The translations under genes and the position numbers were made by a program. This document shows positions 19,261 through 32,286 of a DNA stretch of 64,000 bases, piece by piece (position 1 is the first letter of the stretch; every line of letters starts with the position of its first letter). The stretch is taken from IMG/VR virus record IMGVR_UViG_3300042291_001013, one strand, 5' to 3'. Source of the DNA: a virus. Taxonomy: Duplodnaviria > Caudoviricetes. The notes under the pieces are model-generated. The model did no database searches and was not told the origin of the DNA. It saw nothing but the letters and a program-made list of their open reading frames with translations.

Positions 19261-20487
19261 ATGAGTGTTCCTTTAGATAGATTATATGACTATTTGTATG
19301 GTCTTTGCAACCATAACGATATCTTAATTTATCGCTGGTATCCACATGGCTCAAGAAAAAGAGAGCACTGCCAGTGGGTTGAAGATGATATTAAAACCCT
19401 AACGTTTTTTGATAGAATTACTAGACCTTATCTTGTGTGCCATGATCAAGAGCCTTTGAATTTTGCCCTGTATCAAACCATTCCCAAAAGTACTCTGCAT
19501 GATCTAGTAGACAGTAGATATTTGGCTTATGATCGAGTGCTATTACTACACAGCGAAAAACGCAGTCGCGAGCTAGCAAAATTTGAACAAGACGATGCAA
19601 TTGGAGTATACTATTGGGGACATGCCATGATTGCGCGAGATTGGTTCAGGTATGCTGAACACGATCAACGGCTGGCCAAATCTGCACCCAAAAAAGATTT
19701 TTTGGTATACAATCGTGCATGGAGTGGCACTAGAGAGTACCGACTAAAGTTTGCTGAAATGATAGTGGACAATGCCCTTGATTTGCACTGTCACATGAAC
19801 TTCAGTATTAATGATGGATTACCCTATACTCATCATCAGTTCAAAAACTCCAATTTAAAAATTGCAAGAACGGATCTTGAACAATTTTTTATTGCCAACG
19901 AGGCCAAGAGTTGTTTCAGTGCAGACTATGCCACACAGGACTACCGACAGACTCGAATTGAAATTGTGCTGGAAACACTGTTTGACGACACACGATGGCA
20001 CTTGACTGAAAAAGTACTGAGGCCCATTGCTTGTGGTAAACCGTTTATACTTGCAGCCACTCCGGGTAGTTTGGATTATCTACGCAGTTATGGATTTCAA
20101 ACATTTGGGCAGTGGATTGATGAGTCCTATGACAATATAGTTGACCCTAGAGAAAGACTGATTGCTGTGGTCAAAGAAATGAAAAAGTTTGCTAACCTGA
20201 GCCCTGAAGAAAAACAGCAAATGTGCCAACAGATGCAAGCAGTGTGTGATCACAACCGGGCTCATTTTTTCAGTGACGATTTTTTAAATCAAGTGCTGGG
20301 CGAATTTACTACAAACCTAGACCGTGCGTTAACCATAAGCAAACAACAGTGCTCGGCTCGTTGGCTTAAAGTTGTGTTGAGATCTGCAGGGTCAGTTGAG
20401 CGTTTTGTAAACCGAGATCCTGATGGTGCCACTCGAGAAGATTTAGTAAAATTCTGGCGGTGGTTTCAAGCCCGTGATGCCAAATAA
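19261..20487 (+). CDS. Putative glycosyltransferase-like protein
   Basis: C-terminal IVLET...LTEKVLRPIACGKPFI resembles the GT10/GT-B nucleotide-sugar-binding region. Confidence 0.4.
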   Translation: MSVPLDRLYDYLYGLCNHNDILIYRWYPHGSRKREHCQWVEDDIKTLTFFDRITRPYLVCHDQEPLNFALYQTIPKSTLHDLVDSRYLAYDRVLLLHSEKRSRELAKFEQDDAIGVYYWGHAMIARDWFRYAEHDQRLAKSAPKKDFLVYNRAWSGTREYRLKFAEMIVDNALDLHCHMNFSINDGLPYTHHQFKNSNLKIARTDLEQFFIANEAKSCFSADYATQDYRQTRIEIVLETLFDDTRWHLTEKVLRPIACGKPFILAATPGSLDYLRSYGFQTFGQWIDESYDNIVDPRERLIAVVKEMKKFANLSPEEKQQMCQQMQAVCDHNRAHFFSDDFLNQVLGEFTTNLDRALTISKQQCSARWLKVVLRSAGSVERFVNRDPDGATREDLVKFWRWFQARDAK

Positions 20488-20494
20488 ATATTAG

Positions 20495-22543
20495 ATGTTG
20501 AAAAAAATAGCATTAAGTCCTTGGACGGCCTTGTTAACATTGGCACTTGTTTTAAGTATAAGAATTGCTGATCCTGTCTTTGTAGAAAGTGTAAGACTGC
20601 GCTACTTTGACACGCTGATTACTGACCGTGCTGTCACTGTGAGTGAACAAATTCACGTGGTCAACATTGACGATCGCGCCATTGCTGAACGTGGACAATT
20701 TCCCTTTCCTAGAAGTCAGTATGCTGCCATAATCAAAGCCCTTGATGATCGCAATGCTGGTGTGATTGTGTTTAACATATTCATGCCTGATGCGGATCGT
20801 TTTGGGCAAGACTCTGCCCTGGCTCGGCAACTCAAACAGAGTACAGTGGTGTTGCCACACATGGCCACCAACGAAGACGCTGTGCCCAAGTACCCACCCT
20901 ACAGACCCGGAGTTTCTGTAATAGGCTCTGGCTTGCCGGGCATAGCGTATCAAAGTATTCAACCCAACGTGAGGTTACTAAATGAAACAGCAAGCGGTAT
21001 TGGTATTGTTAACACTTTGCCTGAAATCGACGGCGTTGTACGCCGAGTCCCCCAAGTCATCACAGTTGGAGAACAAGTCTATCCCTCCATCAGTCTTGAA
21101 ACGCTTAGAGTTGCTGCCGGAGATCCCAGCTTCCAGGTCCGAGTCAATGACGGAAGCGTTGAAGCAGTTAGAATTCCACAGTTTGGAAAAATTCCAACAG
21201 ACAATCTCGGTAGAATCTGGGTGGATTGGTCATCCCAGCCGCAAGAACATTCCTTGGCTGATTTGCCAAAGGACTTCCAAGGTGGAATTGTCATTGTTGG
21301 ACTCACCGCTCGCGGGCTCAACAACCCCGTCGCAACTGCAAGAGGAGAAGTCTATCCGCACCATTTGCAAGCCAGCGTACTAGCCACTGTGGCTGCAGGC
21401 ACAAATATTGTGCGTCCAGACTACGCAGACGGAGTTGAAATACTTGCTATTTTAGCCGCAGGTGTGTTATTATTAATTTTTACAAGGTGGGTTTATGTTG
21501 GACTGGCATCGTTGGTTGGAATATGCGCTGTACTTGCGTATGGCAGTTACTTTAGTTTTGTCAATTACCTTTGGCTATTTGACGTTACCCTCCCAGTCGC
21601 AGGCATCGTCCTCGTCGGGCTACACGCCTACGGAGTCAAGTTTGTCTCAGAGTTCCTCCAAAAACAAGCAATCAAAAAACAATTCGCAGGCTACTGTTCC
21701 AAGGAAGTGGTAGAGCTGTTGCAAAAAGATCCTGACTTGATCAAGCGCGGTGTGCGCAAAGACGTATCAGTTATGTTCAGTGACCTACGTGGATTTACTC
21801 CCATTGGTGAACACTACGGCGATGACGTAGCAGGACTTGGCCGATACATGAACGGCTACATGGACAGCATCAGTCAGCCCATGTTGGACAACAAGGGCAT
21901 GATCATCAAATATGTGGGTGATGCATCAATGCACATACATGGTGCTCCTATTGAAGACTTAAATCACGCACGAACAATCGTTGCTGTTGGCTTAGAAATG
22001 CTGGATGCTGTAGACGAATATACCAAGCTGATGGAAGCACAAGGCTTACCACCAGCCGCAATGGGGTGGGGTTGTAACACAGGCATTGGCTTTATTGGTG
22101 AGATGGGGTCAACAGAACGACACAGCTATGACATCTTGGGTGACATGGTTTCAACTGCGGCACGACTAGAAGCACGTTGCAAGGCCTATGGCGTGTTGGC
22201 CATTGTTGGTGCCGAAACTTACAATCGTACTCGAGATGACTTCTTCTATTTGTTGCTAGATAACTTACAACCCAAAGGCAAAACAGTAGCAGACTTGATC
22301 TACACAGTACTACGCACACGTGGTGCGGATTATACTAAAGAACTTGAAACCCACACCAAGATGCATGCCTTGTACAAAGAAAAACAATTTGATGCGGCAG
22401 TTATCTTATGCGAAGAATTGCACGGCAAGTTTGGCGGGCAAATGGACAAGTACTACAAGATGTGGATTGAACGCTGTGGGTTCATGAAGCAACAAGACTT
22501 ACCTGACAACTGGAACGGTGAGTTTGTTGCGCACGAAAAGTAA
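20495..22543 (+). CDS. CHASE2-domain class III adenylate cyclase
   Basis: N-terminal TM, CHASE2 (LRYFD, VVNID, FPFPR, DGVVRR), 3 TM, MFSDLRGFT, KYVGD, YDILGD..STAARLE. Confidence 0.93.
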   Translation: MLKKIALSPWTALLTLALVLSIRIADPVFVESVRLRYFDTLITDRAVTVSEQIHVVNIDDRAIAERGQFPFPRSQYAAIIKALDDRNAGVIVFNIFMPDADRFGQDSALARQLKQSTVVLPHMATNEDAVPKYPPYRPGVSVIGSGLPGIAYQSIQPNVRLLNETASGIGIVNTLPEIDGVVRRVPQVITVGEQVYPSISLETLRVAAGDPSFQVRVNDGSVEAVRIPQFGKIPTDNLGRIWVDWSSQPQEHSLADLPKDFQGGIVIVGLTARGLNNPVATARGEVYPHHLQASVLATVAAGTNIVRPDYADGVEILAILAAGVLLLIFTRWVYVGLASLVGICAVLAYGSYFSFVNYLWLFDVTLPVAGIVLVGLHAYGVKFVSEFLQKQAIKKQFAGYCSKEVVELLQKDPDLIKRGVRKDVSVMFSDLRGFTPIGEHYGDDVAGLGRYMNGYMDSISQPMLDNKGMIIKYVGDASMHIHGAPIEDLNHARTIVAVGLEMLDAVDEYTKLMEAQGLPPAAMGWGCNTGIGFIGEMGSTERHSYDILGDMVSTAARLEARCKAYGVLAIVGAETYNRTRDDFFYLLLDNLQPKGKTVADLIYTVLRTRGADYTKELETHTKMHALYKEKQFDAAVILCEELHGKFGGQMDKYYKMWIERCGFMKQQDLPDNWNGEFVAHEK

Positions 22544-22544
22544 T

Positions 22545-23249
22545 CTAAGTTCTTAATTTGGCAAGACCCAGTGCTCTAAACACTGTGAGCCACATCCAGC
22601 CTGCATCAAACTCAAACCATCGTCTGCTTAGTCGAGGGTTAGCAGGATCCAAATGATGGTTATTATGCAGGCATTCCCCACCAACAATAATATCCCAAGG
22701 AACAATGTTTCTGCTGTGATCTTTAGTTTCGCCATTTCTATATCCCCACCAATGTCCAATGCCGTTGATAACACCAGCGGCCCAGAATGGAATCCAAATC
22801 ATTTGTATACCCCAAATTAGCGGTCCCCACCAGCCAAATATCAAGGTGTTGAGCACAAAGAGAATGCCAATGCCAAGTCTGCTGTGAGGAGTGTATACGT
22901 TGTGCTCCATCCAATCAGCAGGAGTACCAACACCATATGCGTCAACCATGACTTTATCTTTTGATGCTTCATGATATAAGCCTGCTCCTCGAAAGAAAAC
23001 CTGTTGAATTCCATACACATGCGGTGAGTGTGGATCTCCGGGTTGATCACTGTGCCTGTGATGCTTGCGGTGGATAGCCACCCATTGCTTTGTGACCATG
23101 CCTGTTGTGAGCCATAACCAGGCTCGCATAAAGTGTTCAAGTATGGGGTGAAATTCTATTCCTCTGTGAGCTTGTCCACGATGCAAGTAAAGTGTCACGC
23201 ACACTATGGTAATGTGTGTCATTACCAGGGTTGCTATTAGTTCTGTCAT
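22545..23249 (-). CDS. Membrane fatty-acid (acyl-CoA) desaturase
   Basis: His boxes HRGQAH, HRKHH, HNNHH. Confidence 0.92.
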   Translation of the reverse strand: MTELIATLVMTHITIVCVTLYLHRGQAHRGIEFHPILEHFMRAWLWLTTGMVTKQWVAIHRKHHRHSDQPGDPHSPHVYGIQQVFFRGAGLYHEASKDKVMVDAYGVGTPADWMEHNVYTPHSRLGIGILFVLNTLIFGWWGPLIWGIQMIWIPFWAAGVINGIGHWWGYRNGETKDHSRNIVPWDIIVGGECLHNNHHLDPANPRLSRRWFEFDAGWMWLTVFRALGLAKLRT

Positions 23250-23256
23250 CAAGTAC

Positions 23257-23604
23257 TTAACTCTTTTCTGACTTGGCAGCAATCTTATCTACTTCGTCCA
23301 TGGCTTCGTGAAACTTGGCATTGGCCGCAGATTCAACCTTTTGTGTTTCCATCACACGATCACTTTCAATCATTTTGCCACGCAGGTGCAACACAGTATT
23401 GACCTTTTGATTCAGTCGAATAAGATCATTGTCCAGCATGCGTATGCGGTCAATAAGAGCAATCAACACTGAGTTGGCATCTGAGATAACAGGCTTGACT
23501 TCTTTTGTGGCCCATTCCCACACATACTTGATGATATAGCCCATGCCCACTGCCATCACAATGGGAAAGCCATATTTGTTTACTAAATCTACTACTTCAC
23601 TCAT
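23257..23604 (-). CDS. YvrJ-like single-TM coiled-coil protein
   Basis: KYGFPIVMAVGMGY; paralog of 23990-24271. Confidence 0.55.
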   Translation of the reverse strand: MSEVVDLVNKYGFPIVMAVGMGYIIKYVWEWATKEVKPVISDANSVLIALIDRIRMLDNDLIRLNQKVNTVLHLRGKMIESDRVMETQKVESAANAKFHEAMDEVDKIAAKSEKS

Positions 23605-23788
23605 TTTTATTAGACCCTTCTAAAACAAATTGTACCAAGGGATCTACCTGGTGCAATCTTATCTTTCCATTGACTTCGATCATCTGCCAGAACTGTCCAT
23701 GCTTCCAGCCCAGTTTCTCAGTGTTTAATTCTTTGTCTGGTACAATGTATCCAGGACCCAGATCCCAATTATAATCTAGATGTAGCAT
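23597..23788 (-). CDS. Hypothetical protein
   Basis: ORF track, start revised. Confidence 0.6.
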   Translation of the reverse strand: MLHLDYNWDLGPGYIVPDKELNTEKLGWKHGQFWQMIEVNGKIRLHQVDPLVQFVLEGSNKNE

Positions 23789-23990
23789 TGTATTTTCCTT
23801 TTTGTTTTTTGGCTTCAGATACCATGCGGATCCATTCTTTTTTTGCGGCAAGATCATCTTTCATTCTGTCAAGTTTTGTAGCGCGAGAGCTACCAGTTAC
23901 ACCCAAGACCATGATATAACCCAGTCCAAGGCCTAACAAAAGATATGCAATGTAACTTAAATCCAATACAAAATTAACTTCGTAAATCAT
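23769..23990 (-). CDS. Small membrane protein
   Basis: TM segment; TGATG coupling. Confidence 0.6.
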   Translation of the reverse strand: MIYEVNFVLDLSYIAYLLLGLGLGYIMVLGVTGSSRATKLDRMKDDLAAKKEWIRMVSEAKKQKGKYNATSRL

Positions 23991-24271
23991 CAGTCTCTCC
24001 TTGCATCGTTTTTACCGTCAGCTCGTGCAATACGATCAGTATCGGGTTTGAGGCCTAGTGCGCTTGACACAATAGTGTCAATGCGGATGACATCGTGGTT
24101 CATAGTTCTGACTCGATTGTCTAGTGCAGTAATAATGCCGGCCATGCCCTTGATTGCACTCAGCACACCTGCCAGTAGTAGTTTGATTGTGAGATACACA
24201 AAGTATCCGCCAGCCAGTGCCACTGCTATTGGAAACCCTAGATCACCAATCAGTTTGAAAATATCCCCCAT
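23990..24271 (-). CDS. YvrJ-like single-TM coiled-coil protein
   Basis: DLGFPIAVALAGGY; SD AAGGAG. Confidence 0.55.
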   Translation of the reverse strand: MGDIFKLIGDLGFPIAVALAGGYFVYLTIKLLLAGVLSAIKGMAGIITALDNRVRTMNHDVIRIDTIVSSALGLKPDTDRIARADGKNDARRD

Positions 24272-24298
24272 GTCGGCTCCTTGTTTTTATAGCAGTAT

Positions 24299-25375
24299 TT
24301 ATTGACTTTGGATAATGGTTATTGTGGTGCTGCCGCCCGAGTTAATTTTTTGATACACAGGAATACCATCCTGTTGTAAATCCAAGACGGCCCCTTGTTC
24401 TCGAGGCACAGTTAATTCAAAAATATGACTGCTGTATCTAGTTAAAACCAACTGGTCTGAATCAGTTACTCGCCATTTCAAGCCTGAACTTTCATCATAG
24501 CCCGGTAGCATACTCAGCGTGGTTGACATGGCTTCTTGAGTGGCCGACAACGCGGCATTCACAGCATCCAGTACATTGGGCAACAGGTCATCTTCTAGTT
24601 CATTGCGATCCAGCCGATTAAATGCATCCAGCTGATTGTCCAAGTCTGCAGGTTTTAAGAAGTCTTGGTCAAGAAAGTTAGTGTCCAGTACATTTCGACT
24701 ATCTCGTCGGTTGTCCCGGTTTTCTTCGCTGATTTCTCGGGGCCGACTAATGATCAACATGTTGTTGATGTTGGCTTGATCAATAGTGACTATCACTGGC
24801 AATGACGGTGCCCGATCAACAGAAGCAACCAGTGTGGCCTGATAGGCCTGTGTCATTAGTATACTGCCAGCTTGATTGGACACTTCAATAGCGCCTGTCA
24901 CACATGTTTTGTCGTCACAACTGGGCAACAGCATTATTAGACTACGACCCAGTTCGTCCACGGTCATTGAAAAGTCTGTGCCACGCACAGCAATAGAAGC
25001 TGTGGGTGTAGTAACTGCAACCTGTTGCGGGGAATTTTTGGCAATCTGGCCTGAAGCATACCTGGCTGTGCCCAGGGCAACTTTCATGGCCAACTTGCCA
25101 GTGCCCGACTTTGGGTCGTACACAAAGTCATCAATTATCAGCTTTGACTGCTCGGTAATTTTTACTTTGGTAGCATCATCAAAAGTCAATTCAGCTCGAG
25201 ATCTAGCTGTGACAATTGTGTCATTCATTTCCACTGCGGTATTCACAGCACTGGATATGCTTTTTCGGGCCCGTACTATTTCAGTAGGGCCAGACTGTTC
25301 TGTGACCTTGCCTACGCCGGCCCAAGTATTAGTCAGACTGAGTAATACTGATATTAATGTTATTGCCCGAAGCAT
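24299..25375 (-). CDS. Periplasmic FecR-domain protein with acidic D/L-rich tail
   Basis: Signal peptide; DTIVTARSRAELTFDD, VTTPTASIAVRGTDF. Confidence 0.85.
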   Translation of the reverse strand: MLRAITLISVLLSLTNTWAGVGKVTEQSGPTEIVRARKSISSAVNTAVEMNDTIVTARSRAELTFDDATKVKITEQSKLIIDDFVYDPKSGTGKLAMKVALGTARYASGQIAKNSPQQVAVTTPTASIAVRGTDFSMTVDELGRSLIMLLPSCDDKTCVTGAIEVSNQAGSILMTQAYQATLVASVDRAPSLPVIVTIDQANINNMLIISRPREISEENRDNRRDSRNVLDTNFLDQDFLKPADLDNQLDAFNRLDRNELEDDLLPNVLDAVNAALSATQEAMSTTLSMLPGYDESSGLKWRVTDSDQLVLTRYSSHIFELTVPREQGAVLDLQQDGIPVYQKINSGGSTTITIIQSQ

Positions 25376-25955
25376 TGACAGTTGCACTCTGAGTATTCAT
25401 ACCACTCTGTGACACAGTGATTGCATTTGGGACGGCACCAGAACCTGACCCAGTGACATTGATTGTGGCTGAGTTAGCTCCTGAACCCGAACTGTTATGC
25501 GTCACATGGTTGTAGTCACCTAGCACTGTGATGTTACTGGTGTGCGCACCGCCGTTGGATCCCAGCAAACTTTTAACATCATTGCTGTCACCTGTTATGG
25601 TATGCGTGATCGCAGACCCGCTACAGCTGGCGCTGATGCTGGTTCCGCAAGTTATGGTCTGTTGATTGCTGTCACCTATGACCGTGGACGTCACATCGGT
25701 GCCAGCACCGTTGACCAACTTGGCCAGCTGATTGTTACTGCCCGATTGTTCAATATACACAGTGTTCTGACCACCACCAATAAAGGCCGGCGCCAGAGCC
25801 GTGCCAATGGTGTTGTTGCTGCCTGCTTGTTTTAAAGTTACAGTGGTGCCATCACCAACTTGTTCTATATAAATTTCATTTGACGCTTGAACATGCGATA
25901 AAGCCATCATGCTCAATGCAAATATTGTCCCTTTAAGAGATCTTGTTATTTTCAT
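25329..25955 (-). CDS. Curlin-repeat (CsgA/CsgB-like) secreted protein
   Basis: Signal peptide; repeated QxGxxN / GDxN units. Confidence 0.75.
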   Translation of the reverse strand: MKITRSLKGTIFALSMMALSHVQASNEIYIEQVGDGTTVTLKQAGSNNTIGTALAPAFIGGGQNTVYIEQSGSNNQLAKLVNGAGTDVTSTVIGDSNQQTITCGTSISASCSGSAITHTITGDSNDVKSLLGSNGGAHTSNITVLGDYNHVTHNSSGSGANSATINVTGSGSGAVPNAITVSQSGMNTQSATVNASGNNINISITQSD

Positions 25956-26776
25956 TTTTGTTTTGTGGGCGAGTTACTATCCTCAACCTCATTCCTTGGG
26001 AGTGTGCCCTTTTTGTATGACCAAAGTCTTCGTTTTGCTCCTTCTTGGATCATTTCATACACCGCTTGTTCAATGGCTATTCGAACAGCGTATGTGGTGG
26101 GCTCATTTGTAGCGGCCCCGTTCTCAAGTTCAATAGACGTTGTTCCAACATCAACAAATTTAAGAACTCCTTGATTGTGAGCTGTACTGAAAACAGTTTT
26201 ACTCACAGCCGTATTCAGCAACACTTCCCCGGTGTTGACCGAAATAACTCGCATGGAAATAACAATCTCATCCACACGATATTGTGTACTGGCACCAATG
26301 CCCAGTATCCTAGCACCGGTGCCGCCACTTGTGATGTTGGTGTCATAACCAATGATGCCACCTTCAATCATGAGTCCAGCTATCAACAGTGGTTTGAGTG
26401 GTTTGGCATCTTTGCCTTCATACACTTCGCGCTGATTGCGAATTAGTTGACGTTCTTTGATCAAGTTGTCCAGGCTCACACGTTCAACCACTGTGAACCA
26501 ATTGGGTGTGTCTTGCAAGGCCTTGATTAGGAACACTTCGGCACCTTGTGTGACTGCTGTGGAAAACAGTGCCAGCTTGTCGTTGTTTTTTTTCTGACCA
26601 GTCTTGTCCATAAACCCGTACACAGCAATTGGTATTCTTGGTCCATCCAATTCAGGCAGTGTGGCCAACAAGTTCTGTCGTGGCACCAATTTGGGCGGCT
26701 GCGAATCAAACTGAATTTGGTCCAGACTGGCACACCCGCTCAACATCAACAGCAATGACAACACTAGTGCTTTCAT
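25952..26776 (-). CDS. csgG: Curli secretion channel lipoprotein
   Basis: Lipobox LSGC; AVYGFMDKTGQ, STAVTQG, WFTVVER..LDNLIKERQLIR. Confidence 0.92.
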   Translation of the reverse strand: MKALVLSLLLMLSGCASLDQIQFDSQPPKLVPRQNLLATLPELDGPRIPIAVYGFMDKTGQKKNNDKLALFSTAVTQGAEVFLIKALQDTPNWFTVVERVSLDNLIKERQLIRNQREVYEGKDAKPLKPLLIAGLMIEGGIIGYDTNITSGGTGARILGIGASTQYRVDEIVISMRVISVNTGEVLLNTAVSKTVFSTAHNQGVLKFVDVGTTSIELENGAATNEPTTYAVRIAIEQAVYEMIQEGAKRRLWSYKKGTLPRNEVEDSNSPTKQK

Positions 26777-27216
26777 CAAAATGCAAAACTCGCTAGTGGC
26801 ACAGTGATCTCTGTGCGATTGCCATTGCTTTCTAGAATGGTCATGGTGACATCAGTAGAAGTTTTAACCCAGCTGATGTTGGTGCCTTGAAAATCCAAAC
26901 TGCCTGTGGTTCCACCGCCGCTGAATAGTGAGTCTGCCAACTGCTTGCTCAACTGAGCATAGATGCGACTTTCTACGTTGACTAGGAATTTGGCTATGTT
27001 GGTTTGTTTGGCCGCAAGCTCGGCCTTGGCCAATCTGTTGGCTTCTTCTTCTCGTAGTTTTTGTCGGCGTGTGGCTTCCAGTTGTTCAATCGTAAGCACG
27101 TGACTACTGTAACCGACTCCTGAAAAAGCTGGCGAATTGAACTGATGTACCAGTTCAGTGGCTCCGGCCCGCAATGCTATCACAAGCAGGGCCATTATAA
27201 TTATTATTTTGTTCAT
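26776..27216 (-). CDS. CsgF-like curli assembly protein
   Basis: Mature N-terminus TELVHQFNSPAFSG; adjacent to csgG. Confidence 0.65.
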   Translation of the reverse strand: MNKIIIIMALLVIALRAGATELVHQFNSPAFSGVGYSSHVLTIEQLEATRRQKLREEEANRLAKAELAAKQTNIAKFLVNVESRIYAQLSKQLADSLFSGGGTTGSLDFQGTNISWVKTSTDVTMTILESNGNRTEITVPLASFAF

Positions 27217-27220
27217 AGAA

Positions 27221-27249
27221 AAACCCCACCTAGTATTTACGTGGGGTTT
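27221..27249 (-). promoter_or_regulatory. Hairpin/terminator with late promoter TAAATA in the loop and SD in the 3' arm
   Basis: AAACCCCAC-GTAAATACTAG-GTGGGGTTT-TTCT-ATG. Confidence 0.7.
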
Positions 27250-27282
27250 GGATTCTTAAACGGCTTGTTTTATTGCGCTGGG

Positions 27283-27636
27283 TTAGATTCGCACTCTAGT
27301 GCCGTCCCAGTCAGCCCCGGGGTCGTTGTCTTTGTAGTTTTTTACACGACTCAGCAAATCCACGTAAAATGTGTCTACTTCGCCGTTCCACTTGCCCATG
27401 AGACCTTCTATAGCATGTTCACAGTAGTTCCATTCACGTTGCTTGTAATAGTGAATGATATCATTGTGTACCTTTTTGTACGCATCTAAATTGGCAAATT
27501 CTGTCAATGGCAGTTTTTCTATCACGCAGTAGGCAGTTTTCACAGTGCCTTCTGCAACAAAACGAAATGTGTCTAGTTCTAGTACAGTGTAACTGTTGGG
27601 TATTTCTTTAAGAGCGTCGCCAAATATAATGTTCAT
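27283..27636 (-). CDS. Stand-alone paralog of the adenylate cyclase C-terminal region
   Basis: Colinear similarity to the last ~115 aa of 20495-22543. Confidence 0.75.
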   Translation of the reverse strand: MNIIFGDALKEIPNSYTVLELDTFRFVAEGTVKTAYCVIEKLPLTEFANLDAYKKVHNDIIHYYKQREWNYCEHAIEGLMGKWNGEVDTFYVDLLSRVKNYKDNDPGADWDGTRVRI

Positions 27637-27660: not shown

Positions 27661-28449
27661 ATGAGTTTTGCATTTGATTTAATTTCTGACCTACACATAG
27701 ACACCTGGGGTCAATTTAGCTGGGAAAATCGCGCCACCTCTCCGGTGTGTATTGTGGCTGGCGACTTGGCTAGAGACCGAGACACAGTTACTCGTGCTCT
27801 GAGACACCTGGGCAAAATGTATCAGGCTGTGTTCTACATTGACGGCAACGATGAGCATACTGACTACAGAGAAAATCTTGGGGAAAGTTACCTAGATCTT
27901 GCTCGACGCATAGAACGCATACCCAACGTGGTATACTTACAAGACAATGTGGTAGTAGTTGACGGCATAGCAATTCTGGGCACCAACGGCTGGTGGGGCT
28001 TTGATTTTGATCTTACTATTGACAGTGAAGAAAGCCAGGACTGGTATGCTGACAAAGAGAACCTTAGTCCTGTAGCAATTTCCAGCATACGCAAAATGGG
28101 CAACACTGACGCCACTTACATGCTCAGCAGTGTGAAAAGATTACAAACACATCATGACGTCAAAAAGATTGTAATGGTCACACACACTGTGCCTGACCCA
28201 TCTTTAATCGAACACGACATTGACTTGGAAAATACTCCTAGATTCAATACCATGGGCAATCGTTACATGATGCAGGCTCTGGCGGCTGACACTGAAAACA
28301 AAATTGATACCTGGTGTTTTGGCCATTATCATGGATCAGTGGATCAAACCCGTTCAGGTATTCGATTTGTAAACAACTGTCGTGGACGAGCCGGTACACG
28401 GTTTGTGCAACATGTGTACCATCCCCGACGTATTGTTATTGACCTTTAG
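27661..28449 (+). CDS. Calcineurin-like metallophosphoesterase
   Basis: SDLH, AGD, DGNDEH, VTHT, FGHYH. Confidence 0.88.
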   Translation: MSFAFDLISDLHIDTWGQFSWENRATSPVCIVAGDLARDRDTVTRALRHLGKMYQAVFYIDGNDEHTDYRENLGESYLDLARRIERIPNVVYLQDNVVVVDGIAILGTNGWWGFDFDLTIDSEESQDWYADKENLSPVAISSIRKMGNTDATYMLSSVKRLQTHHDVKKIVMVTHTVPDPSLIEHDIDLENTPRFNTMGNRYMMQALAADTENKIDTWCFGHYHGSVDQTRSGIRFVNNCRGRAGTRFVQHVYHPRRIVIDL

Positions 28450-28757
28450 GTCATTGATTCCGGCTCAAGTTTGATCTGCAAGGGATAACTTTGAGCACGT
28501 GCCAGCATGGTAACTTCTACACCTTTTTGTTCGGCAACTTCATAAGGAAGAACTGCCACAATTGCTGATCCTGCTTCATGAATATCCACAGTGATCTGTT
28601 CCGCGGTGTCTGCTGTGTAATCAAAGTAGTTGATCAAGGTTTCAACCACAAACTCCATGGTGGTCTGATTGTCGTTGAGATATACTACACGAAACAATGG
28701 TGGTTCTTTGACAGCTTCTAATGGTTTGATACGTGTGCGTGTTTCGCTTTGTGGCAT
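28446..28757 (-). CDS. clpS: Clp protease adaptor ClpS
   Basis: VVYLNDNQTTMEFVV, IHEAGSA, EVAEQK. Confidence 0.9.
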   Translation of the reverse strand: MPQSETRTRIKPLEAVKEPPLFRVVYLNDNQTTMEFVVETLINYFDYTADTAEQITVDIHEAGSAIVAVLPYEVAEQKGVEVTMLARAQSYPLQIKLEPESMT

Positions 28758-28816
28758 TTCAGTTCCTTGTTGGCAGTGGCAAGCACCGCGCTTGCCACTT
28801 TATTTACACTATTATA

Positions 28817-29269
28817 TTAGGAAGTGTAGGTGATAGCAATGGTCTTTGGCTTGGCATCTTCGGGCACTTCACGCTTTAGGTGAACGCTTAGAATACCAAG
28901 TTCAAGGTGAGCATGGCTGATCTCCACATGATCCGCAAGTTGAAATTCCCTACGGAAATCTCTATTGCTGATACCTTTGTGCAAATAGGTTGGCACAATC
29001 TTTTCGCTGTCGGCTTGATATTCTTTGCCTTCAATAATCAAGAACTTTTTGTCCTTGGTAACTGAAAGATTATCAAGCCCAAAGCCGGCCACAGCCAAAC
29101 TGATCATGTACTCATCTTCATTGATTTGTACAATGTTGTAGGGTGGATAGTTTGTGCTGGATTGTTGAGCACTCACACGCATGAGTTCATCAAACATGTT
29201 ATCAAAACCGATACCAAATTTGTGAATTGCGGGAATGTCGAACGAGCGAAGGGTGAGAGTTTTTGTCAT
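28817..29269 (-). CDS. Small heat-shock protein (Hsp20/IbpA family)
   Basis: GIGFD, NYPPYNI, LAVAGF, YLHKGISNRDFRREF, GILSVHL. Confidence 0.96.
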   Translation of the reverse strand: MTKTLTLRSFDIPAIHKFGIGFDNMFDELMRVSAQQSSTNYPPYNIVQINEDEYMISLAVAGFGLDNLSVTKDKKFLIIEGKEYQADSEKIVPTYLHKGISNRDFRREFQLADHVEISHAHLELGILSVHLKREVPEDAKPKTIAITYTS

Positions 29270-29276
29270 TTGTTTT

Positions 29277-29294
29277 CTCCTTTATATAAGCAAG
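29277..29294 (-). promoter_or_regulatory. ROSE RNA thermometer hairpin
   Basis: CUU(G)CUU-AUAUA-AAGGAG: canonical U(U/C)GCU motif pairing with the SD of an sHsp gene. Confidence 0.75.
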
Positions 29295-29380
29295 ATGACT
29301 TGTGATGTAGCCCCACTATGGGCACTACAATGTTATTTATTATACGAGATTTCTTTTAGAACAAAACCAAATTGAGCAAA

Positions 29381-29605
29381 TCAATACAGTTTTCGGGGTA
29401 GACTCTGTGCGTCCAATTTCTTTTGCCAGCGATTCTTTGCGGCTGACTTTTTGCGTTTGCGCTCGGTTGTGGGTTTTTCGTAAAATTCTTTGGCACGGAC
29501 GTCATCCAGTATGCCTGAGGCCTGTATCTTTTTCTTGAATTTACGCAGTGCTTTGTCTACATTGCCATCTTGTACCAGTACGGATCTACCTCTTAATTTA
29601 ACCAT
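29381..29605 (-). CDS. rpsU: 30S ribosomal protein bS21
   Basis: [15 protein letters not shown]...[16 protein letters not shown]. Confidence 0.92.
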
Positions 29606-30800
29606 TGCTTTCTTTTAGTTCCTTTGGTGTATTTACTTGATCTGCATCAATATTCACCACTTGGATACCTTGCTTGCGATATCGCGACAAGTAAAACATA
29701 TGGGGCAATAACACACGTTCCAGTTCACTGTGCAAGCCACGAGCACCAGTTTTGTTTTTTATTGTGCGTTCGGCAATGAGTTCCAGGCTTTCGGGGCTGA
29801 ATTTCAATTCCACTTGATCACGTTCAAATAACCAGTTGTACTGACTGATGTAGCTGTGCTTGACGTCTTGCAGGATTCTCAGCAGATCTTTCTTGGTGAG
29901 CTCTTGCAAGGCAACCCAGCTGGGGAAACGACCCACAAATTCAGGGATCATTCCAAAGCGGATAAGATCTTCTGGGTTGGTTAGATCAAGATTGGCTGTG
30001 GTATCTGACGACACCTGTGCACCAAATCCAATGCTGGTACCTTTAACACGATTTTTAACAATGTTGTCCAAGCCCACAAATGCGCCGCCAGCAATAAACA
30101 AGATGTTGGTGGTATCAATCTCAATCATGTCTCCCGAAGGATGCTTGCGATTGCCTGTGGGAGTGACCCTGCACTTGGTGCCTTCTACTAGTTTAAGTAG
30201 CGCCTGCTGTACACCTTCGCCCGACACATCTCGTGTGATACTGGCACTCTCACTACGACGACTGATCTTGTCAATTTCGTCAATAAACACAATACCACGT
30301 TGAGTTTTTTCTACATCGCCTCCGGAAGCCGCAAACAGTCTACTGATCAAACTTTCTACATCATCGCCCACATAACCAGCTTCAGTAAGACTAGTGGCAT
30401 CAGCAATAACAAACGGCACATCTAGATAACGTGCTATGCTACGTGCCAACAGGGTTTTGCCTGAGCCTGTGGGGCCAAGCATGAGAATGTTGGTCTTTTC
30501 AATTTCAATTTCAGGGTTGGGATTGGCAATGCGTTTGTAGTGATTGACCACGGCCACACTGAGCACCTGCTTGGCAACATCTTGCCCAATTACATATTGA
30601 TCTAGATGTCGTTTGATTTCTTCTGGGTCCAGGGTTGCATTGACTTCAGGTTTGACTGGTAGGTCTTTTTGCAGTAGATCTTGACAAAGATCCACGCACT
30701 CGTTGCAGATGCTGACAGAATCGCCAACAATTAGTTTGGCCACAGCATCTTTGTGTTTGCCACAAAAACTGCAGGTATCAATGTTTTCATTTGTTTTCAT
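29598..30800 (-). CDS. clpX: ATP-dependent Clp protease ATP-binding subunit ClpX
   Basis: CSFC..CNEC Zn domain, [18 protein letters not shown] loop, IGF loop, GARGL. Confidence 0.97.
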
Positions 30801-32286
30801 TATGGGAATTGGTTTGTTGTAAACGTTCGGCCACTTGTTCGCGTTCAGCATTGGTCAGCAGATCAGTATCATACTCGCCACTGCCAATACGTTCAATCAA
30901 GTGATCAATATAGGCTTCATCGTAAGTATAGCTGTCTGTGTGATTTTTGTCAACTTCAATCCAGTCATTACCGTTGTACTTATAGACTCTGCTGGGCAGG
31001 TGATCAACTCTTACAAAGGTGTCACCACGACCAGGATTGGGAGGGAAAGTAGTACCAAATCCTGTGTTGGTTGATTCTGGCAATTCATTATCGGCTATTA
31101 ATTCCATCCAGGGTAGTTTTGTAATTTTACCTTGGCTCAGCAACTGTCGTTGATGCTTGAGTGTGTCATCAGGATTTTGTTCTTTCCAGGTTTGTTTGGC
31201 AGCCTTGACACGTGGATCTTCTTCAGCTTCTTCTAGAGCTTCAATTTCCTGGTCAGTAAAAGGGCGTATTTCCACGCCTGGGGGTTCGGCCACAATGTTC
31301 ATGGCAGCGTCATCGTCACTGACCTTGGCAACCATGGGTTTACTGAACATCCAACTTTCGGGATACTGGAACCCTTGCGTTAGATAAGGGTGTGTGCTGG
31401 GATGGTGCTGTGGTGGATCTTTGGACAAATCTTTGTTTGCTAGATCTTGGATTTGTTCAAGTTGTTCGTCAGTTAATGGGCCATCGTCGGGTTCATACTT
31501 GGGCTCGTCATGTACAAAGCCTCCGGTGCCTTGTCGTGCCCATTCAAACTGTTTGTTGGCGGCCAGGATCAGTGTGAGAGCAAGAGGATCAAATACCAGC
31601 ACAATCATTATGATCATCCAACGCACTGCACGTTCTAGTAGATTGTCGTCGGGATTGTCCCCGTACAACAAAGCCGCAATGTATTTTATTGGTCCAACCT
31701 CGGCTTCAACCTTGCGTACCTCGGCGGCAATAGGCGCACGGGCATCGTTAAGTTCCGCAATAGACTTTTGCGACTGTGATATTTCAGCTTGAAGGCGACC
31801 ACGCTCTTTCTGCTGGGTTCTTCGCATAGCCACAGCTTTTTCGGCACCCGTTTCTGTTGTTGAGCGGCCCAGTACTTGGTCCACTCCTTCATCCATCTGT
31901 TTAAGTGCCTTACGGTTTGCTTCAATATTCTCTTTCTCGGTCTTGATCTTTTCATCATATATTGCTATTTTACTTGTAACATCACCGCTGACTAAACTTT
32001 GATCACTGTGTGCTTTTGACAGGTATCCAAAGATACCCATACTGGTCAGTATCATGAGAAACGCCACGGCCGGTATGAGATACACCTTAAAGGCCCAACC
32101 AGCACGTTTCCAGTTGTTGTGCAACCATACTGTGGCTGCAATCTTGCCTAGTTCTAGGCTACCGCCCATGATGATAACCGGAATAGTGGCCGCACTAAAG
32201 ATGGCCACCAATCCGGCTACTGAGTAATAAGCAGCCACCATGCTTAACAACAATGCGGTGGCGAGAATAGCAAATCCAAATATCAT
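30787..32286 (-). CDS. Multi-TM and coiled-coil late protein
   Basis: Four N-terminal TMs, coiled coil, TM, acidic C-terminus; TAAATA 7 nt upstream. Confidence 0.7.
   Translation of the reverse strand: MIFGFAILATALLLSMVAAYYSVAGLVAIFSAATIPVIIMGGSLELGKIAATVWLHNNWKRAGWAFKVYLIPAVAFLMILTSMGIFGYLSKAHSDQSLVSGDVTSKIAIYDEKIKTEKENIEANRKALKQMDEGVDQVLGRSTTETGAEKAVAMRRTQQKERGRLQAEISQSQKSIAELNDARAPIAAEVRKVEAEVGPIKYIAALLYGDNPDDNLLERAVRWMIIMIVLVFDPLALTLILAANKQFEWARQGTGGFVHDEPKYEPDDGPLTDEQLEQIQDLANKDLSKDPPQHHPSTHPYLTQGFQYPESWMFSKPMVAKVSDDDAAMNIVAEPPGVEIRPFTDQEIEALEEAEEDPRVKAAKQTWKEQNPDDTLKHQRQLLSQGKITKLPWMELIADNELPESTNTGFGTTFPPNPGRGDTFVRVDHLPSRVYKYNGNDWIEVDKNHTDSYTYDEAYIDHLIERIGSGEYDTDLLTNAEREQVAERLQQTNSHNENK

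What the first reader, a model, noticed from the sequence alone, without database searches (positions are those of the whole stretch)
20495..27636. Late-expressed trans-envelope signalling module: curli-type secretion, FecR and CHASE2 adenylate cyclase
Seen: coupled csgF-csgG-curlin-fecR, then two YvrJ-like membrane paralogs and a desaturase, converge on a CHASE2 cyclase. A cyclase-tail paralog and a metallophosphoesterase lie at the other end. TAA(A/G)TA motifs precede csgF, 24271, the desaturase, the cyclase and the phosphoesterase. Known: CsgG/F form an outer-membrane channel, FecR and CHASE2 are periplasmic sensor domains, and curli genes have been noted in pelagiphages without a function. 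Inference: an outer-membrane-to-cAMP relay active late in infection that senses outside conditions (superinfecting phage, cell density, envelope damage) and adjusts lysis timing or aggregation, analogous in purpose to T4 lysis inhibition.
Basis: partly seen in the sequence, partly recalled or inferred. Interest (0 to 1): 0.82.

Follow-up and report, generated by a model that had tools for sequence, protein, structure and literature searches.

The report
Phage curli secretion plus cAMP sensor
A giant T4-like lake-water phage carries the curli-secretion, FecR and adenylate-cyclase gene set already described in marine pelagiphages, and it probably gives infected cells a surface apparatus wired to a cAMP-producing envelope sensor whose purpose is still unknown.

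Summary
Window 20495-27636 encodes:
- a CHASE2 class III cyclase;
- a DesA-type desaturase;
- two paralogous small membrane proteins, with two small ORFs between them;
- a secreted FecR-domain protein;
- a curlin-repeat protein, a CsgG lipoprotein and CsgF;
- a copy of the cyclase tail.

The core genes travel together. In 38 of 38 distinct IMG/VR loci with enough flank, the cyclase lies within 10 kb of csgF, csgG, fecR and both small paralogs. Four gene orders occur in all. The window differs from the common order by one inversion.

A TAAATA motif sits before csgF, the first paralog and the cyclase. It is enriched upstream of starts and conserved in relatives. In cultured relatives it also precedes tail genes, so late expression is plausible but unmeasured.

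The module is not new. Wittmers et al. 2022 (PMC9599517) described "HK"-CsgF-CsgG-CsgA/B-FecR-CsgA/B-cyclase in marine pelagiphages.

New here:
- it occurs in lake phages of about 360 kb;
- the cyclase sensor is CHASE2, and FecR-CHASE2 is a known bacterial sensor pair;
- the "HK" proteins have no kinase domain;
- relatives have a variable slot for surface proteins.

The outer-membrane-to-cAMP relay is the best-fitting mechanism but is untested. A role in lysis timing is speculation. The desaturase, the phosphoesterase and the tail copy are accessory.

The parts
20495..22543 (+). Receptor-type class III adenylate cyclase: an N-terminal TM helix, a periplasmic CHASE2 domain, further TM helices, the cyclase domain and a C-terminal tail of about 80 aa
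   Evidence: Pfam CHASE2 E 1.2e-37 and Guanylate_cyc E 1.6e-13. It matches solved bacterial adenylate cyclases such as 2w01 and 3r5g. D430, K472, D476, D546, R557 and K594/K596 are invariant in 60 homologues, but S553 replaces the canonical Asn. Hydrophobic segments lie at 4-22, 311-329 and 356-374.
20485..20490 (+). TAAATA motif 10 nt before the cyclase start. It overlaps the stop codon of the upstream gene.
   Evidence: Conserved in 40 of 62 distinct upstream regions, mostly at exactly -10. The same placement (-11) occurs in Melnitz and HTVC008M, and before HTVC008M tail genes.
22545..23282 (-). Short DesA-family membrane fatty-acid desaturase. It is an accessory gene, and its likely start is the ATG at 23249.
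   Evidence: Pfam FA_desaturase E 1.2e-13. NCBIfam DesA_fam_desat 378 bits. Present beside the cyclase in 17 of 38 relatives and absent from Melnitz and HTVC008M.
23257..23604 (-). Small membrane protein, paralog A (115 aa). It is the orthologue of Melnitz gp98 and HTVC008M gp012, and is the 'HK' of the published module.
   Evidence: 48% and 47% identity to the isolates' genes. phrog_18771 E 1.4e-29, plus a weak N-terminal hit to a holin PHROG. No kinase domain even at E <= 10. Present in 38/38 loci.
23597..23857 (-). Small conserved ORF (86 aa) between the two paralogs. Function unknown.
   Evidence: Found in 34 of 38 loci. No family hit.
23769..23990 (-). Small ORF (73 aa) with one TM segment and a strongly basic tail. 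It is specific to this lineage.
   Evidence: TM at 5-23 and net charge +7 in the last 40 residues. Seen only in close relatives.
23990..24271 (-). Small membrane protein, paralog B (93 aa). It is the orthologue of Melnitz gp97 and HTVC008M gp011.
   Evidence: 57% and 51% identity to the isolates' genes. Two hydrophobic segments at 7-25 and 29-47, followed by a basic tail. Among 50,697 phage records it occurs only in the six records that also carry CsgG and the cyclase.
24296..24301 (-). TAAATA motif 30 nt before paralog B. It overlaps the fecR stop codon.
   Evidence: Conserved in 52 of 55 distinct upstream regions.
24299..25387 (-). Secreted FecR-domain protein: a signal peptide, a FecR beta-domain, an acidic low-confidence linker and a small C-terminal beta-sandwich.
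   Evidence: Pfam FecR E 2.4e-10. AlphaFold model with mean pLDDT 74. The N-domain matches the periplasmic signalling domain of PupR, 6ovk, E 7e-5, and bacterial FecR-domain proteins in AFDB. There are 198 clusters at 50% identity with E <= 1e-30.
25329..25955 (-). Curlin-repeat (CsgA/B-like) secreted protein, 208 aa
   Evidence: Signal peptide and repeated Q-x-G-x-x-N motif. 23 of 27 family members hit Curlin_rpt. Beta-solenoid model with pLDDT 85.8. The best structural match is CsgA, 8c50, Z 17.0, with E. coli CsgA 8enq at Z 14.1; unrelated beta-helices reach Z 15.
25952..26779 (-). CsgG outer-membrane lipoprotein channel
   Evidence: Pfam CsgG E 5.6e-53. Full-length match to E. coli CsgG 3x2r, E 6e-49, including the LSGC lipobox.
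26776..27216 (-). CsgF, the partner of CsgG
   Evidence: Pfam CsgF E 6.8e-13 over residues 5-140. Signal peptide present. phrog_35372 E 1e-43.
27217..27250 (-). Hairpin with TAAATA in its loop, followed by a U-run, ending just before the csgF start
   Evidence: Folds at -20.9 kcal/mol, z -3.3. TAAATA is conserved before csgF in 48/54 relatives, and in the close relatives L003, L004 and L006 the stem is kept through changed bases.
27283..27636 (-). Stand-alone paralog of the cyclase C-terminal end (117 aa). Accessory.
   Evidence: hhalign probability 95.5%, E 1.5e-8, against cyclase residues 573-677. Present in 8 of 38 loci.

Best explanation
This is the lake-water, jumbo-phage version of the phage type VIII secretion (curli) module.

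What the sequence shows about where the products go:
- In the infected cell the phage installs its own outer-membrane channel, made of the CsgG lipoprotein and CsgF.
- It exports at least one curlin-repeat protein through that channel.
- It places a FecR-domain protein in the periplasm.
- It places a CHASE2 receptor adenylate cyclase and two small, holin-sized membrane proteins in the inner membrane.

Three T4-type late-promoter-like TAAATA sites divide the module into three units: csgF-csgG-curlin-fecR, the small-membrane-protein genes, and the cyclase.

The most likely working principle is inferred, not shown. The periplasmic FecR-domain protein would couple the state of the CsgG/curlin surface apparatus, or a ligand that reaches the periplasm through it, to the CHASE2 domain. 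CHASE2 would then set cAMP synthesis in the cytoplasm. The cAMP would be read by a host receptor, because the phage encodes no cNMP-binding domain.

Identity of the parts and their linkage is close to certain. The outside-in relay is the reading I rate at about 0.45. What is sensed, and what cAMP changes, remain open.
For: Identity of the parts.

Linkage:
- In 38/38 distinct loci with enough flank the cyclase has csgF, csgG, fecR and both small paralogs within 10 kb.
- Each of five relatives' records (three of them complete, 357-372 kb) holds one CsgG and one CHASE2 gene, 4-9 kb apart.
- The set survives in four gene orders: the common one, the window's inversion, the colinear order of Melnitz and HTVC008M, and csgF-csgG-cyclase-curlin-fecR in L100.
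- Among cultured phages the small paralog occurs only where CsgG and the cyclase occur.

Direction of signalling:
- CHASE2 is the extracytoplasmic part and the cyclase is the cytoplasmic output, going by the topology.
- FecR-domain genes sit directly upstream of CHASE2 sensors in both bacterial loci I examined and in the Burkholderia operon (PMC5192318).
- Sinorhizobium CHASE2 cyclases receive their signal through the outer-membrane protein NsrA (PMC13001267).
- The FecR N-domain has the fold of the PupR domain, which binds an outer-membrane transducer.

Selection:
- The catalytic domain averages 92% pairwise identity, against 66% for CHASE2 and 50% for the TM helices. Both metal-binding Asp, the K/D substrate pair and the Arg are invariant.
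- Distances in the CHASE2 domain follow those of FecR and CsgG (Spearman rho 0.53 and 0.56; partial Mantel 0.45, p 5e-4). Distances in the catalytic and TM parts of the same gene do not (0.11-0.24).

Timing:
- TAAATA is enriched upstream of starts and conserved at three positions.
- In HTVC008M the same motif lies 11 nt before the tape-measure and DNA-end-protector genes.

Expression: marine versions were seen in metatranscriptomes (PMC9599517).
Against: - There is no functional or time-resolved expression evidence for any member of this module.
- The transition-state Asn of class III cyclases is Ser in all 60 lake-phage homologues, so activity may be low or altered. HTVC008M keeps the Asn.
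- No cNMP-binding domain was found in three complete relatives, and the host is unknown, so the output path is unsupported.
- The CHASE2-FecR covariation vanishes once CsgG is controlled for (0.12, p 0.12). Physical linkage of the 5' part of the cyclase gene to the csg block could also produce it.
- PMC9599517 reports that FecR and the cyclase are not always present in marine curli regions. One short contig here shows FecR followed by unrelated genes.
- No bacterial operon combining CsgG with CHASE2 was found that could serve as a worked example.
Confidence: 0.45

Rival explanations
1. Fibre and aggregation device. The purpose would be to coat the infected cell with curli-type fibres or fibre-tethered binding proteins. 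These would either shield it from competing phages or hold neighbouring host cells close ('sibling capture'). FecR and the cyclase would only regulate or proof-read secretion. This is the reading of the published papers.
For: - The minimal T8SS is complete, with a curlin substrate.
- In relatives the slot between fecR and the cyclase holds further surface proteins: second curlins, curlin repeats at the end of a large protein, F5/8-type-C lectin-domain proteins and autotransporters.
- The idea was proposed in PMC7029224 and PMC9599517.
Against: - Melnitz cultures showed no clumping in cytograms or by TEM (PMC9004378).
- This reading does not explain why a receptor cyclase with a highly conserved catalytic domain is kept in 38/38 loci.
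- It is not exclusive of the relay reading: the fibres could be the antenna.
Confidence: 0.25
2. Lysis-timing device. CsgG/CsgF would act as a gated outer-membrane pore, and the two small membrane paralogs as holin/antiholin-like proteins. The cyclase would delay or trigger lysis, as in T4 lysis inhibition.
For: - The paralogs are holin-sized, with one or two hydrophobic segments followed by a hydrophilic tail (basic in paralog B).
- One paralog has a weak N-terminal hit to a holin PHROG, E 4e-5.
- The word 'holin' does not occur in the Melnitz paper's text (PMC9004378).
- The genes carry late-type promoter motifs.
Against: - No endolysin or spanin lies in the module.
- The holin likeness rests on general features and 22 residues.
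- A pore of CsgG's size in the outer membrane has no known role in canonical lysis.
- There are no data on lysis timing.
Confidence: 0.1
3. Import channel. Without the CsgE gate, CsgG would stay open and admit nutrients or cofactors such as iron chelates, with FecR acting in iron sensing as its name suggests.
For: - No CsgE homologue is present in the module.
- The idea is raised in PMC7029224 and PMC9599517.
Against: - The FecR protein lacks the anti-sigma N-domain and the membrane anchor of true FecR regulators; it has only a signal peptide.
- Its conserved partner in bacteria is CHASE2, not an iron transporter.
- CsgF and curlin genes would not be needed for a plain pore.
Confidence: 0.07
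4. The Csg-like proteins are virion parts, or the genes are merely neighbours in a hypervariable region with no shared function.
For: The module lies in a variable region next to unrelated accessory genes such as the desaturase, a sugar-modification operon and clpS/hsp20.
Against: - Lipoprotein and Sec signals direct the products to the host envelope, not to a cytoplasmic assembly line.
- The core set is kept in 38/38 loci through four rearrangements.
Confidence: 0.03

Closest known systems
Pelagiphage type VIII secretion module (Wittmers et al. 2022, PMC9599517; first noted in HTVC008M and by Zaragoza-Solas et al. 2020, PMC7029224; also in Melnitz, PMC9004378)
   Same: The gene set is the same: one or two small 'HK' proteins, CsgF, CsgG, a curlin-repeat protein, FecR and an adenylate cyclase. 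Proteins are 37-57% identical to those of Melnitz and HTVC008M. CsgC, CsgD and CsgE are absent in both.
   Different: - The host phage is a T4-like phage of about 361 kb from lake water, not a marine phage of 140-150 kb or a podovirus. PMC7029224 reported the freshwater fonsimyophages as lacking the operon.
- One inversion puts the cyclase convergent to the rest of the module.
- There is only one curlin gene.
- A desaturase and a cyclase-tail copy have been added.
- The papers do not mention the CHASE2 domain. They label the small proteins histidine kinases, which Pfam does not support.
Bacterial curli system (CsgG/CsgF channel with CsgA/CsgB fibres, E. coli type)
   Same: CsgG is homologous over its full length, lipobox included. 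CsgF matches over the whole Pfam profile. The substrate has curlin repeats and a beta-solenoid model closest to CsgA.
   Different: - There is no CsgE, CsgC or CsgD.
- Of the CsgG constriction residues as I recall them from E. coli (Y51, N55, F56), only the Phe position is kept in the alignment. This comparison rests on my memory of the residue numbers.
- Amyloid formation is untested.
- The genes are joined to FecR and a cyclase, which is not the case in bacterial curli operons (PMC9599517; no adjacency in the listed rows).
FecR-domain protein plus CHASE2 sensor pairs of bacteria (Burkholderia biofilm-regulating operon and PA4035/PA4036, PMC5192318)
   Same: A secreted FecR-domain protein is encoded beside a membrane sensor with a periplasmic CHASE2 domain. 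I saw this again in two bacterial loci.
   Different: - In the described operon the output is a histidine kinase with a response regulator; here it is a cyclase.
- There is no LysM domain.
- In most phage loci fecR and the cyclase are separated by 0.6-6 kb of variable genes, and here by the inverted block.
Sinorhizobium meliloti NsrA - CyaD1/CyaD2/CyaK - Clr pathway (PMC13001267 and references in it)
   Same: CHASE2 adenylate cyclases make cAMP in response to an external protein signal that is perceived through an outer-membrane beta-barrel protein.
   Different: NsrA is not a CsgG-type channel, and the cAMP receptor Clr is known there. Here no receptor is known, no signal is known, and the system is viral.
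T4 lysis inhibition (holin T, antiholin RI)
   Different: There are no homologous parts, no evidence that lysis is affected, and the signal carrier here would be a cyclic nucleotide.

Membership tests
Phage T8SS module of pelagiphages (PMC9599517) | Co-located csgF, csgG, curlin-repeat gene, fecR and adenylate cyclase, preceded by one or two small 'HK' genes | tested here: met
   All are present in window 20495-27216. Orthology to Melnitz gp97-104 and HTVC008M gp011-019 was shown by tblastn. The gene order differs by one inversion.
Curli type VIII secretion system | CsgG-family outer-membrane lipoprotein | tested here: met
   Pfam E 5.6e-53. Match to E. coli CsgG E 6e-49, with the lipobox.
Curli type VIII secretion system | CsgF partner protein | tested here: met
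   Pfam CsgF, 49.3 bits against a 25.8-bit cut-off, covering profile positions 3-132 of 132. A direct phmmer search against PDB chains found nothing.
Curli type VIII secretion system | Secreted curlin-repeat subunit (CsgA/CsgB type) | tested here: met
   The window's own protein scores 19.2 bits, below the 20.7 cut-off. However, 23/27 family members match, the repeat motif is invariant, and the model's best structural match is CsgA at Z 17.0.
Curli type VIII secretion system | Periplasmic gate CsgE, chaperone CsgC and regulator CsgD | tested here: not met
   No such domains were found among the module's proteins. This is as reported for alphaproteobacterial and phage systems (PMC9599517).
Curli type VIII secretion system | Formation of extracellular amyloid fibres | not testable with these tools
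   This needs Congo red or ThT staining, or electron microscopy.
Class III adenylate cyclase | Two metal-binding Asp, the Lys/Asp pair that selects ATP, and the transition-state Arg | tested here: met
   D430, D476, K472, D546 and R557 are invariant in 60 homologues.
Class III adenylate cyclase | Transition-state Asn in the V-N-x-A-x-R motif | tested here: not met
   Ser553 occurs in all 60 lake-phage homologues. In the solved cyclases the aligned position is Asn. HTVC008M has Asn.
CHASE2 sensor proteins | CHASE2 domain between an N-terminal TM helix and further TM helices | tested here: met
   Pfam 130.4 bits against a 26.3-bit cut-off, residues 16-325. Hydrophobic segments at 4-22, 311-329 and 356-374.
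FecR/PupR-type anti-sigma regulators | Cytoplasmic anti-sigma domain and a TM anchor ahead of the periplasmic FecR domain | tested here: not met
   The protein starts with a signal peptide, followed directly by the FecR domain. It shares only the periplasmic fold. It belongs with the secreted FecR-domain partners of CHASE2 sensors.
Histidine kinase (label given to the small paralogs in PMC9599517) | HisKA and HATPase_c domains | tested here: not met
   No such hit even at E <= 10 for the window's two paralogs or for their Melnitz and HTVC008M orthologues. The proteins are 92-115 aa long.
Holins (considered for the small paralogs) | Small size, at least one TM segment, a charged C-terminal tail, and membrane permeabilisation | tested here: inconclusive
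   The sequence features fit, and there is a weak 22-residue PHROG holin hit. Function is untestable here.
Pycsar or other anti-phage defence cyclases | Specific match to a PycC model together with an effector gene | tested here: not met
   There is only a generic 43-bit PycC hit, no stronger than the general cyclase-domain homology, and no effector hit.

The most novel reading that the evidence does not exclude
The phage builds a sensory organelle on the infected cell. Curli-type fibres, which in relatives carry lectin domains or are joined by autotransporters, would act as an external antenna. Their load or occupancy would be passed by the FecR-domain protein to the CHASE2 cyclase. The resulting cAMP would then tell the phage programme about neighbours, particles or competing phages. 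The two holin-sized membrane proteins would be the effectors that set the time of lysis. This would be a cyclic-nucleotide analogue of T4 lysis inhibition, and the first outside-in signalling pathway made wholly of phage parts.
Probability: 0.12. Interest if true: 0.85.

Novelty: new member of a known kind. Interest (0 to 1): 0.45.

Why it matters
Phage curli genes are abundant: PMC9599517 puts them at about 0.1% of assembled viral proteins in the ocean. Their purpose has been called a mystery since 2013.

This window adds three things.

1. The same module is fixed in a large family of lake-water T4-like phages of about 360 kb. The FecR family alone has 198 clusters at 50% identity, and there are at least 274 IMG/VR cyclase loci. 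It is therefore not a peculiarity of SAR11 or OM43 phages.

2. Two points are not in the published accounts. The cyclase carries a CHASE2 sensor whose usual bacterial partner is a FecR-domain protein. The 'kinase' genes are really small membrane proteins. Together these turn a loose list of 'regulators' into a specific wiring diagram.

3. That diagram can be tested by expression in E. coli, by cya complementation, and by measuring cAMP in the two cultured phage-host pairs.

If the relay is real, it would show that phages can give their hosts a new sensory input during infection.

Tried and rejected
- Nucleotide search of the 7.1-kb stretch against 50,697 phage records found nothing. Only protein searches reached Melnitz and HTVC008M.
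- The scan of 185,579 species genomes with the cyclase profile gave eight loci. Seven are short MAG contigs. The two that I compared (L084, L088) are colinear with Melnitz and HTVC008M, so they are misbinned phage contigs. Only L090 is a true bacterial locus.
- I looked for CsgG next to CHASE2 in 401 Pseudomonadota genomes. CsgG occurs in 121 and CHASE2 in 216. The only shared contig among the listed rows (G329) has them 11 kb apart, with chemotaxis genes between, and the CsgG there is a GNA1162-associated paralog. The CHASE2 table was cut, with 306 rows unlisted, so this check is incomplete.
- The gp23 capsid genes of three complete relatives have no TAAATA within 90 nt, so that test of 'late' gave nothing. 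The isolates' tail genes did show the motif.
- Foldseek found no significant match for the curlin model in PDB or Swiss-Prot. Only the exhaustive aligner put CsgA first.
- phmmer of CsgF against PDB found nothing.
- No long inverted repeat flanks the inverted block.
- PADLOC gave no defence-system assignment.
- The sigma-70 promoter scan gave 25 promoter-like sites against a mean of 17.4 (sd 4.6) in shuffles, about 1.7 sd above, and none stands out within the module.
- The top 150 hits of the FecR profile search were all of the phage type. They did not reach bacterial relatives, so the origin question stays open.
- The distant FecR homologues P0246 and P0202 lie on contigs too short to inform.
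- No RNA run holds the stretch, so expression could not be examined.

Full report
**What is there.** The interval 20495-27636 is densely coding. On the + strand lies a 682-aa protein with a CHASE2 domain (E 1.2e-37) and a class III cyclase domain (E 1.6e-13). Running towards it on the - strand, in order of transcription, are:
- a 117-aa ORF;
- csgF (146 aa, E 6.8e-13);
- csgG (275 aa, E 5.6e-53);
- a 208-aa curlin-repeat protein;
- a FecR-domain protein of 358-362 aa (E 2.4e-10);
- a 93-aa membrane protein, then ORFs of 73 and 86 aa, then a 115-aa paralog of the 93-aa protein;
- a 245-aa fatty-acid desaturase.

The two small proteins are 27% identical (E 1e-12). The 117-aa ORF is a copy of the last 110 residues of the cyclase: BLASTP E 2e-6, and profile-profile probability 95.5%, E 1.5e-8. 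The desaturase is of the DesA family. CsgG aligns with E. coli CsgG from residue 3 to 263, including the lipobox. CsgF, the curlin and FecR begin with signal peptides, and the cyclase has the TM-CHASE2-TM layout.

**What the window is.** The same FecR protein occurs on a contig of 361 kb. The stretch is held by 24 lake-water metagenome runs. Relatives in IMG/VR include three complete genomes of 357-372 kb that encode a T4-type Gp23 capsid protein. The nearest cultured relatives of the module's genes are two marine myophages of the Kyanoviridae: Methylophilales phage Melnitz and Pelagibacter phage HTVC008M. In both, eight genes lie in one direction: paralog B, paralog A, csgF, csgG, curlin, fecR, a second curlin-repeat protein and the cyclase.

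**Linkage.** The cyclase has at least 274 relatives in IMG/VR. Among the 80 loci fetched, 38 distinct ones have at least 9 kb upstream and 5 kb downstream of the cyclase. All 38 contain csgF, csgG, fecR and both small paralogs. The usual order is: hsp20, clpS, csgF, csgG, curlin, fecR, a variable stretch, the cyclase, and then, convergent to these, the desaturase (in some), paralog A, the 86-aa ORF and paralog B. The window and its closest relatives differ by a single inversion of the block running from the cyclase to paralog B. One locus has the colinear order of the marine isolates. A distant FecR homologue lies in a fourth order, csgF-csgG-cyclase-curlin-fecR. Each of five relatives' records (three of them complete) has one CsgG and one CHASE2 gene, 4-9 kb apart. 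Among 50,697 phage records, paralog B occurs only in the six that also have CsgG and the cyclase. By contrast the desaturase is present in 17 of 38 loci, the tail copy in 8 and the phosphoesterase in 2. These three are accessory.

**The promoter-like motif.** TAAATA lies 23 nt before csgF, 30 nt before paralog B, 10 nt before the cyclase and 12 nt before the phosphoesterase. The desaturase has TAAGTA 10 nt before an internal ATG. Three of these sites include the stop codon of the gene before. Even so, the signal is real:
- In the window, 20 of 34 TAAATA sites lie within 80 nt upstream of a start on the same strand, against about 5.6% of positions.
- In relatives the motif is kept before csgF (48/54), paralog B (52/55) and the cyclase (40/62, mostly at exactly -10).
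- It is essentially absent before csgG, fecR, paralog A and the desaturase.

The module is thus read as three units. In HTVC008M and Melnitz the fuller T4-like form (T/C/G)ATAAATA sits 11 nt before the cyclase. In HTVC008M it also sits 11 nt before csgF, the tape-measure gene and the DNA-end-protector gene. In the window it precedes genes with tail-spike-like and virion-protein-like PHROG hits, but not the ribonucleotide reductase, ligase or helicase genes. T4 late promoters have the consensus TATAAATA (established knowledge). Late expression is therefore a reasonable inference, but I found no transcript data. The capsid genes of the relatives carry no motif of their own.

**The cyclase.** Across 60 distinct homologues the cytoplasmic linker and catalytic domain average 92-94% pairwise identity. 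The periplasmic CHASE2 domain averages 66% and the TM helices 50%. Both metal-binding Asp, the Lys/Asp pair that marks ATP-specific enzymes, the Arg and the KGK lysines are invariant. The position of the transition-state Asn is Ser in all 60 (aligned to solved cyclases). HTVC008M has Asn. This pattern fits a working enzyme domain with a fast-changing sensor, but the Ser leaves the level of activity open.

**The FecR protein.** The AlphaFold model (mean pLDDT 74) has three parts: a confident beta-domain (residues 22-195), an acidic low-confidence linker (about 200-290) and a small C-terminal beta-sandwich. The N-domain matches the periplasmic cell-surface-signalling domain of the anti-sigma regulator PupR (6ovk, E 7e-5) and many bacterial FecR-domain proteins. 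The protein has no anti-sigma domain or membrane anchor, so it is not a FecR regulator in the strict sense. The C-terminal sandwich gave only a weak match, to an adhesin anchoring domain (5ix9, E 0.011), which I treat as a lead. The family is large and viral: 198 clusters at 50% identity with E <= 1e-30, and the nearest clusters listed in the protein atlas are viral.

**Bacterial context.**
- The only true bacterial relative of the cyclase found in the species-genome scan lies in an Inquilinaceae chromosome (32% identity). There the CHASE2 cyclase is preceded by a 2107-aa protein that has an N-terminal FecR domain and many Ig/cadherin-type repeats. It is followed by a type I secretion ABC transporter and HlyD protein.
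- A second locus shows a response regulator, a LysM-FecR protein and a CHASE2 histidine kinase. This is the operon described in Burkholderia (PMC5192318).
- FecR next to CHASE2 is therefore a bacterial unit, and in one case it is again tied to a secretion system and a surface protein.
- CsgG next to CHASE2 was not seen in the listed rows for 401 Pseudomonadota genomes. This agrees with the statement in PMC9599517 that FecR and the cyclase are not part of bacterial curli operons.
- In Sinorhizobium, CHASE2 cyclases respond to an external protein through the outer-membrane protein NsrA and act through cAMP and Clr (PMC13001267). That is a working precedent for the direction of signalling proposed here.

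**Co-variation.** In 27 sequences, pairwise distances of FecR follow those of CsgG (Spearman rho 0.84) and CsgF (0.77). The CHASE2 domain follows FecR (0.53) and CsgG (0.56). The catalytic, TM and tail parts of the same gene do not (0.08-0.24). After controlling for the small paralogs and the catalytic domain, CHASE2 still follows FecR (0.45, p 5e-4). After controlling for CsgG it does not (0.12, p 0.12). The sensor domain therefore tracks the csg-fecR block as a whole. Co-evolution would explain this, and so would recombination inside the cyclase gene. I count it as suggestive only.

**The variable slot.** Between fecR and the cyclase most relatives carry 0.6-6 kb of co-directional genes. The ones sampled encode further curlin-repeat proteins (one has its curlin-repeat match at the C-terminal end of a 797-aa protein), proteins with an F5/8-type-C carbohydrate-binding domain, autotransporters with a C-terminal beta-barrel, a glycine-rich-domain protein and a glycosyltransferase. 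The window has lost this slot through the inversion and keeps a single curlin. The slot suggests that the module displays changeable binding proteins on the cell surface.

**The small paralogs.** PMC9599517 calls them histidine kinases. Neither the window's proteins nor their orthologues in the isolates give any kinase-domain hit, even at E <= 10. They are 92-115 aa long. Paralog B has two hydrophobic segments and a basic tail, while paralog A's hydrophobic stretch fell below the scan threshold and its tail is net acidic. They are the most conserved proteins of the module, at about 90% and 79% mean pairwise identity. One has a weak N-terminal hit to a holin PHROG. The word 'holin' does not occur in the Melnitz paper's text. 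A holin-like role is possible but rests on general features.

**What is already known.** CsgF and CsgG were annotated in HTVC008M, and the 'curli operon' of pelagimyophages was described in 2020 (PMC7029224). Buchholz et al. proposed a role in lysis timing for Melnitz and saw no clumping (PMC9004378). Wittmers et al. 2022 described the whole set, including CsgA/B-type repeats, FecR and the adenylate cyclase, in marine podo- and myophages. They showed its spread across 65 ocean stations and its presence in metatranscriptomes, and they argued for transfer of the module between phage families (PMC9599517). That paper is the only one in the library holding the terms CsgG, phage, adenylate cyclase and FecR together, and it never mentions CHASE2. 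The finding is thus a new member of a known kind.

**Verdict.** The parts and their linkage are secure. The best-supported mechanism is a phage-installed surface secretion apparatus whose state, or whose passenger, is reported by a periplasmic FecR-domain protein to a CHASE2 adenylate cyclase, with expression from late-type promoters. I rate this at about 0.45. Fibre-based aggregation or shielding is the main rival and may be the other half of the same device. Lysis timing, superinfection sensing, and any role for the desaturase or the phosphoesterase are unsupported.

Noticed in passing
window 27217-27250 (- strand): A hairpin of 9 base pairs carries TAAATA in its loop and is followed by a U-run that ends 2 nt before the csgF start (-20.9 kcal/mol, z -3.3). 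In the close relatives L003, L004 and L006 the stem is kept through changed bases. It could terminate transcripts of the upstream gene while the loop holds the promoter of csgF.
   Followed up: partly
window 20483-20490 (+) and 24296-24303 (-): The two ends of the inverted block (cyclase to paralog B) coincide with the two promoter-like sites, which form an 8-nt inverted repeat, AATAAATA. No longer inverted repeat flanks the block. Short promoter repeats may have mediated the inversion.
   Followed up: partly
window 20485-20494; L001 and L002 (cyclase, csgF, tape measure, DNA end protector): The late-type motif often ends only 4-5 nt before the start codon, leaving no room for a ribosome-binding site. 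This hints at leaderless or nearly leaderless late mRNAs in this phage group.
   Followed up: no
L048 7121-9172, L035 5929-7962, L027 6649-9945, L010 8159-9841, L025 6904-9297: Between fecR and the cyclase, relatives carry a variable slot. It encodes autotransporters, F5/8-type-C lectin-domain proteins and large proteins ending in curlin repeats.
   Followed up: partly
L090 3513-15204 (Inquilinaceae chromosome): A bacterial operon encodes a 2107-aa protein (N-terminal FecR domain plus Ig/cadherin repeats), a CHASE2 adenylate cyclase, and a type I secretion ABC transporter with HlyD. It looks like an adhesin-coupled cAMP sensor and may be a useful bacterial model for the phage module.
   Followed up: partly
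L100 544-7037 (MAG contig JAONVR010000035.1): A fourth gene order occurs here: csgF, csgG, CHASE2 cyclase, curlin-repeat protein, FecR (418 aa), then a 300-aa protein. Whether the 7.5-kb contig is viral or cellular is unknown.
   Followed up: partly
relatives, e.g. L035 759-2093, L019 3646-4935: Most lake-phage CsgG proteins are 375-444 aa long. They carry a C-terminal extension of 100-170 aa that the window's 275-aa CsgG and E. coli CsgG lack.
   Followed up: no
window 28446-30851 (- strand): Phage-encoded ClpS, Hsp20 and ClpX lie next to the module. clpS (27/38) and hsp20 (23/38) are its usual upstream neighbours in relatives, and both carry TAAATA upstream.
   Followed up: no
L084, L088 and other short MAG contigs (L083, L085-L087, L089): Contigs binned as Rhodobacteraceae and Pelagibacter (L084, L088) are colinear with Melnitz and HTVC008M, so they are phage contigs placed in bacterial bins. 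The other short contigs, binned as Chitinophagaceae, Marivivens, Algoriphagus and Bacteroidetes, were not compared. One bin (G007) holds five different CsgG contigs.
   Followed up: partly
window 22545-23282 (- strand): The DesA-family desaturase matches only the first 240 of 385 profile positions and overlaps the end of paralog A. PMC7029224 noted lipid desaturases in freshwater SAR11 phages, so this may be a freshwater-specific membrane-lipid gene.
   Followed up: no
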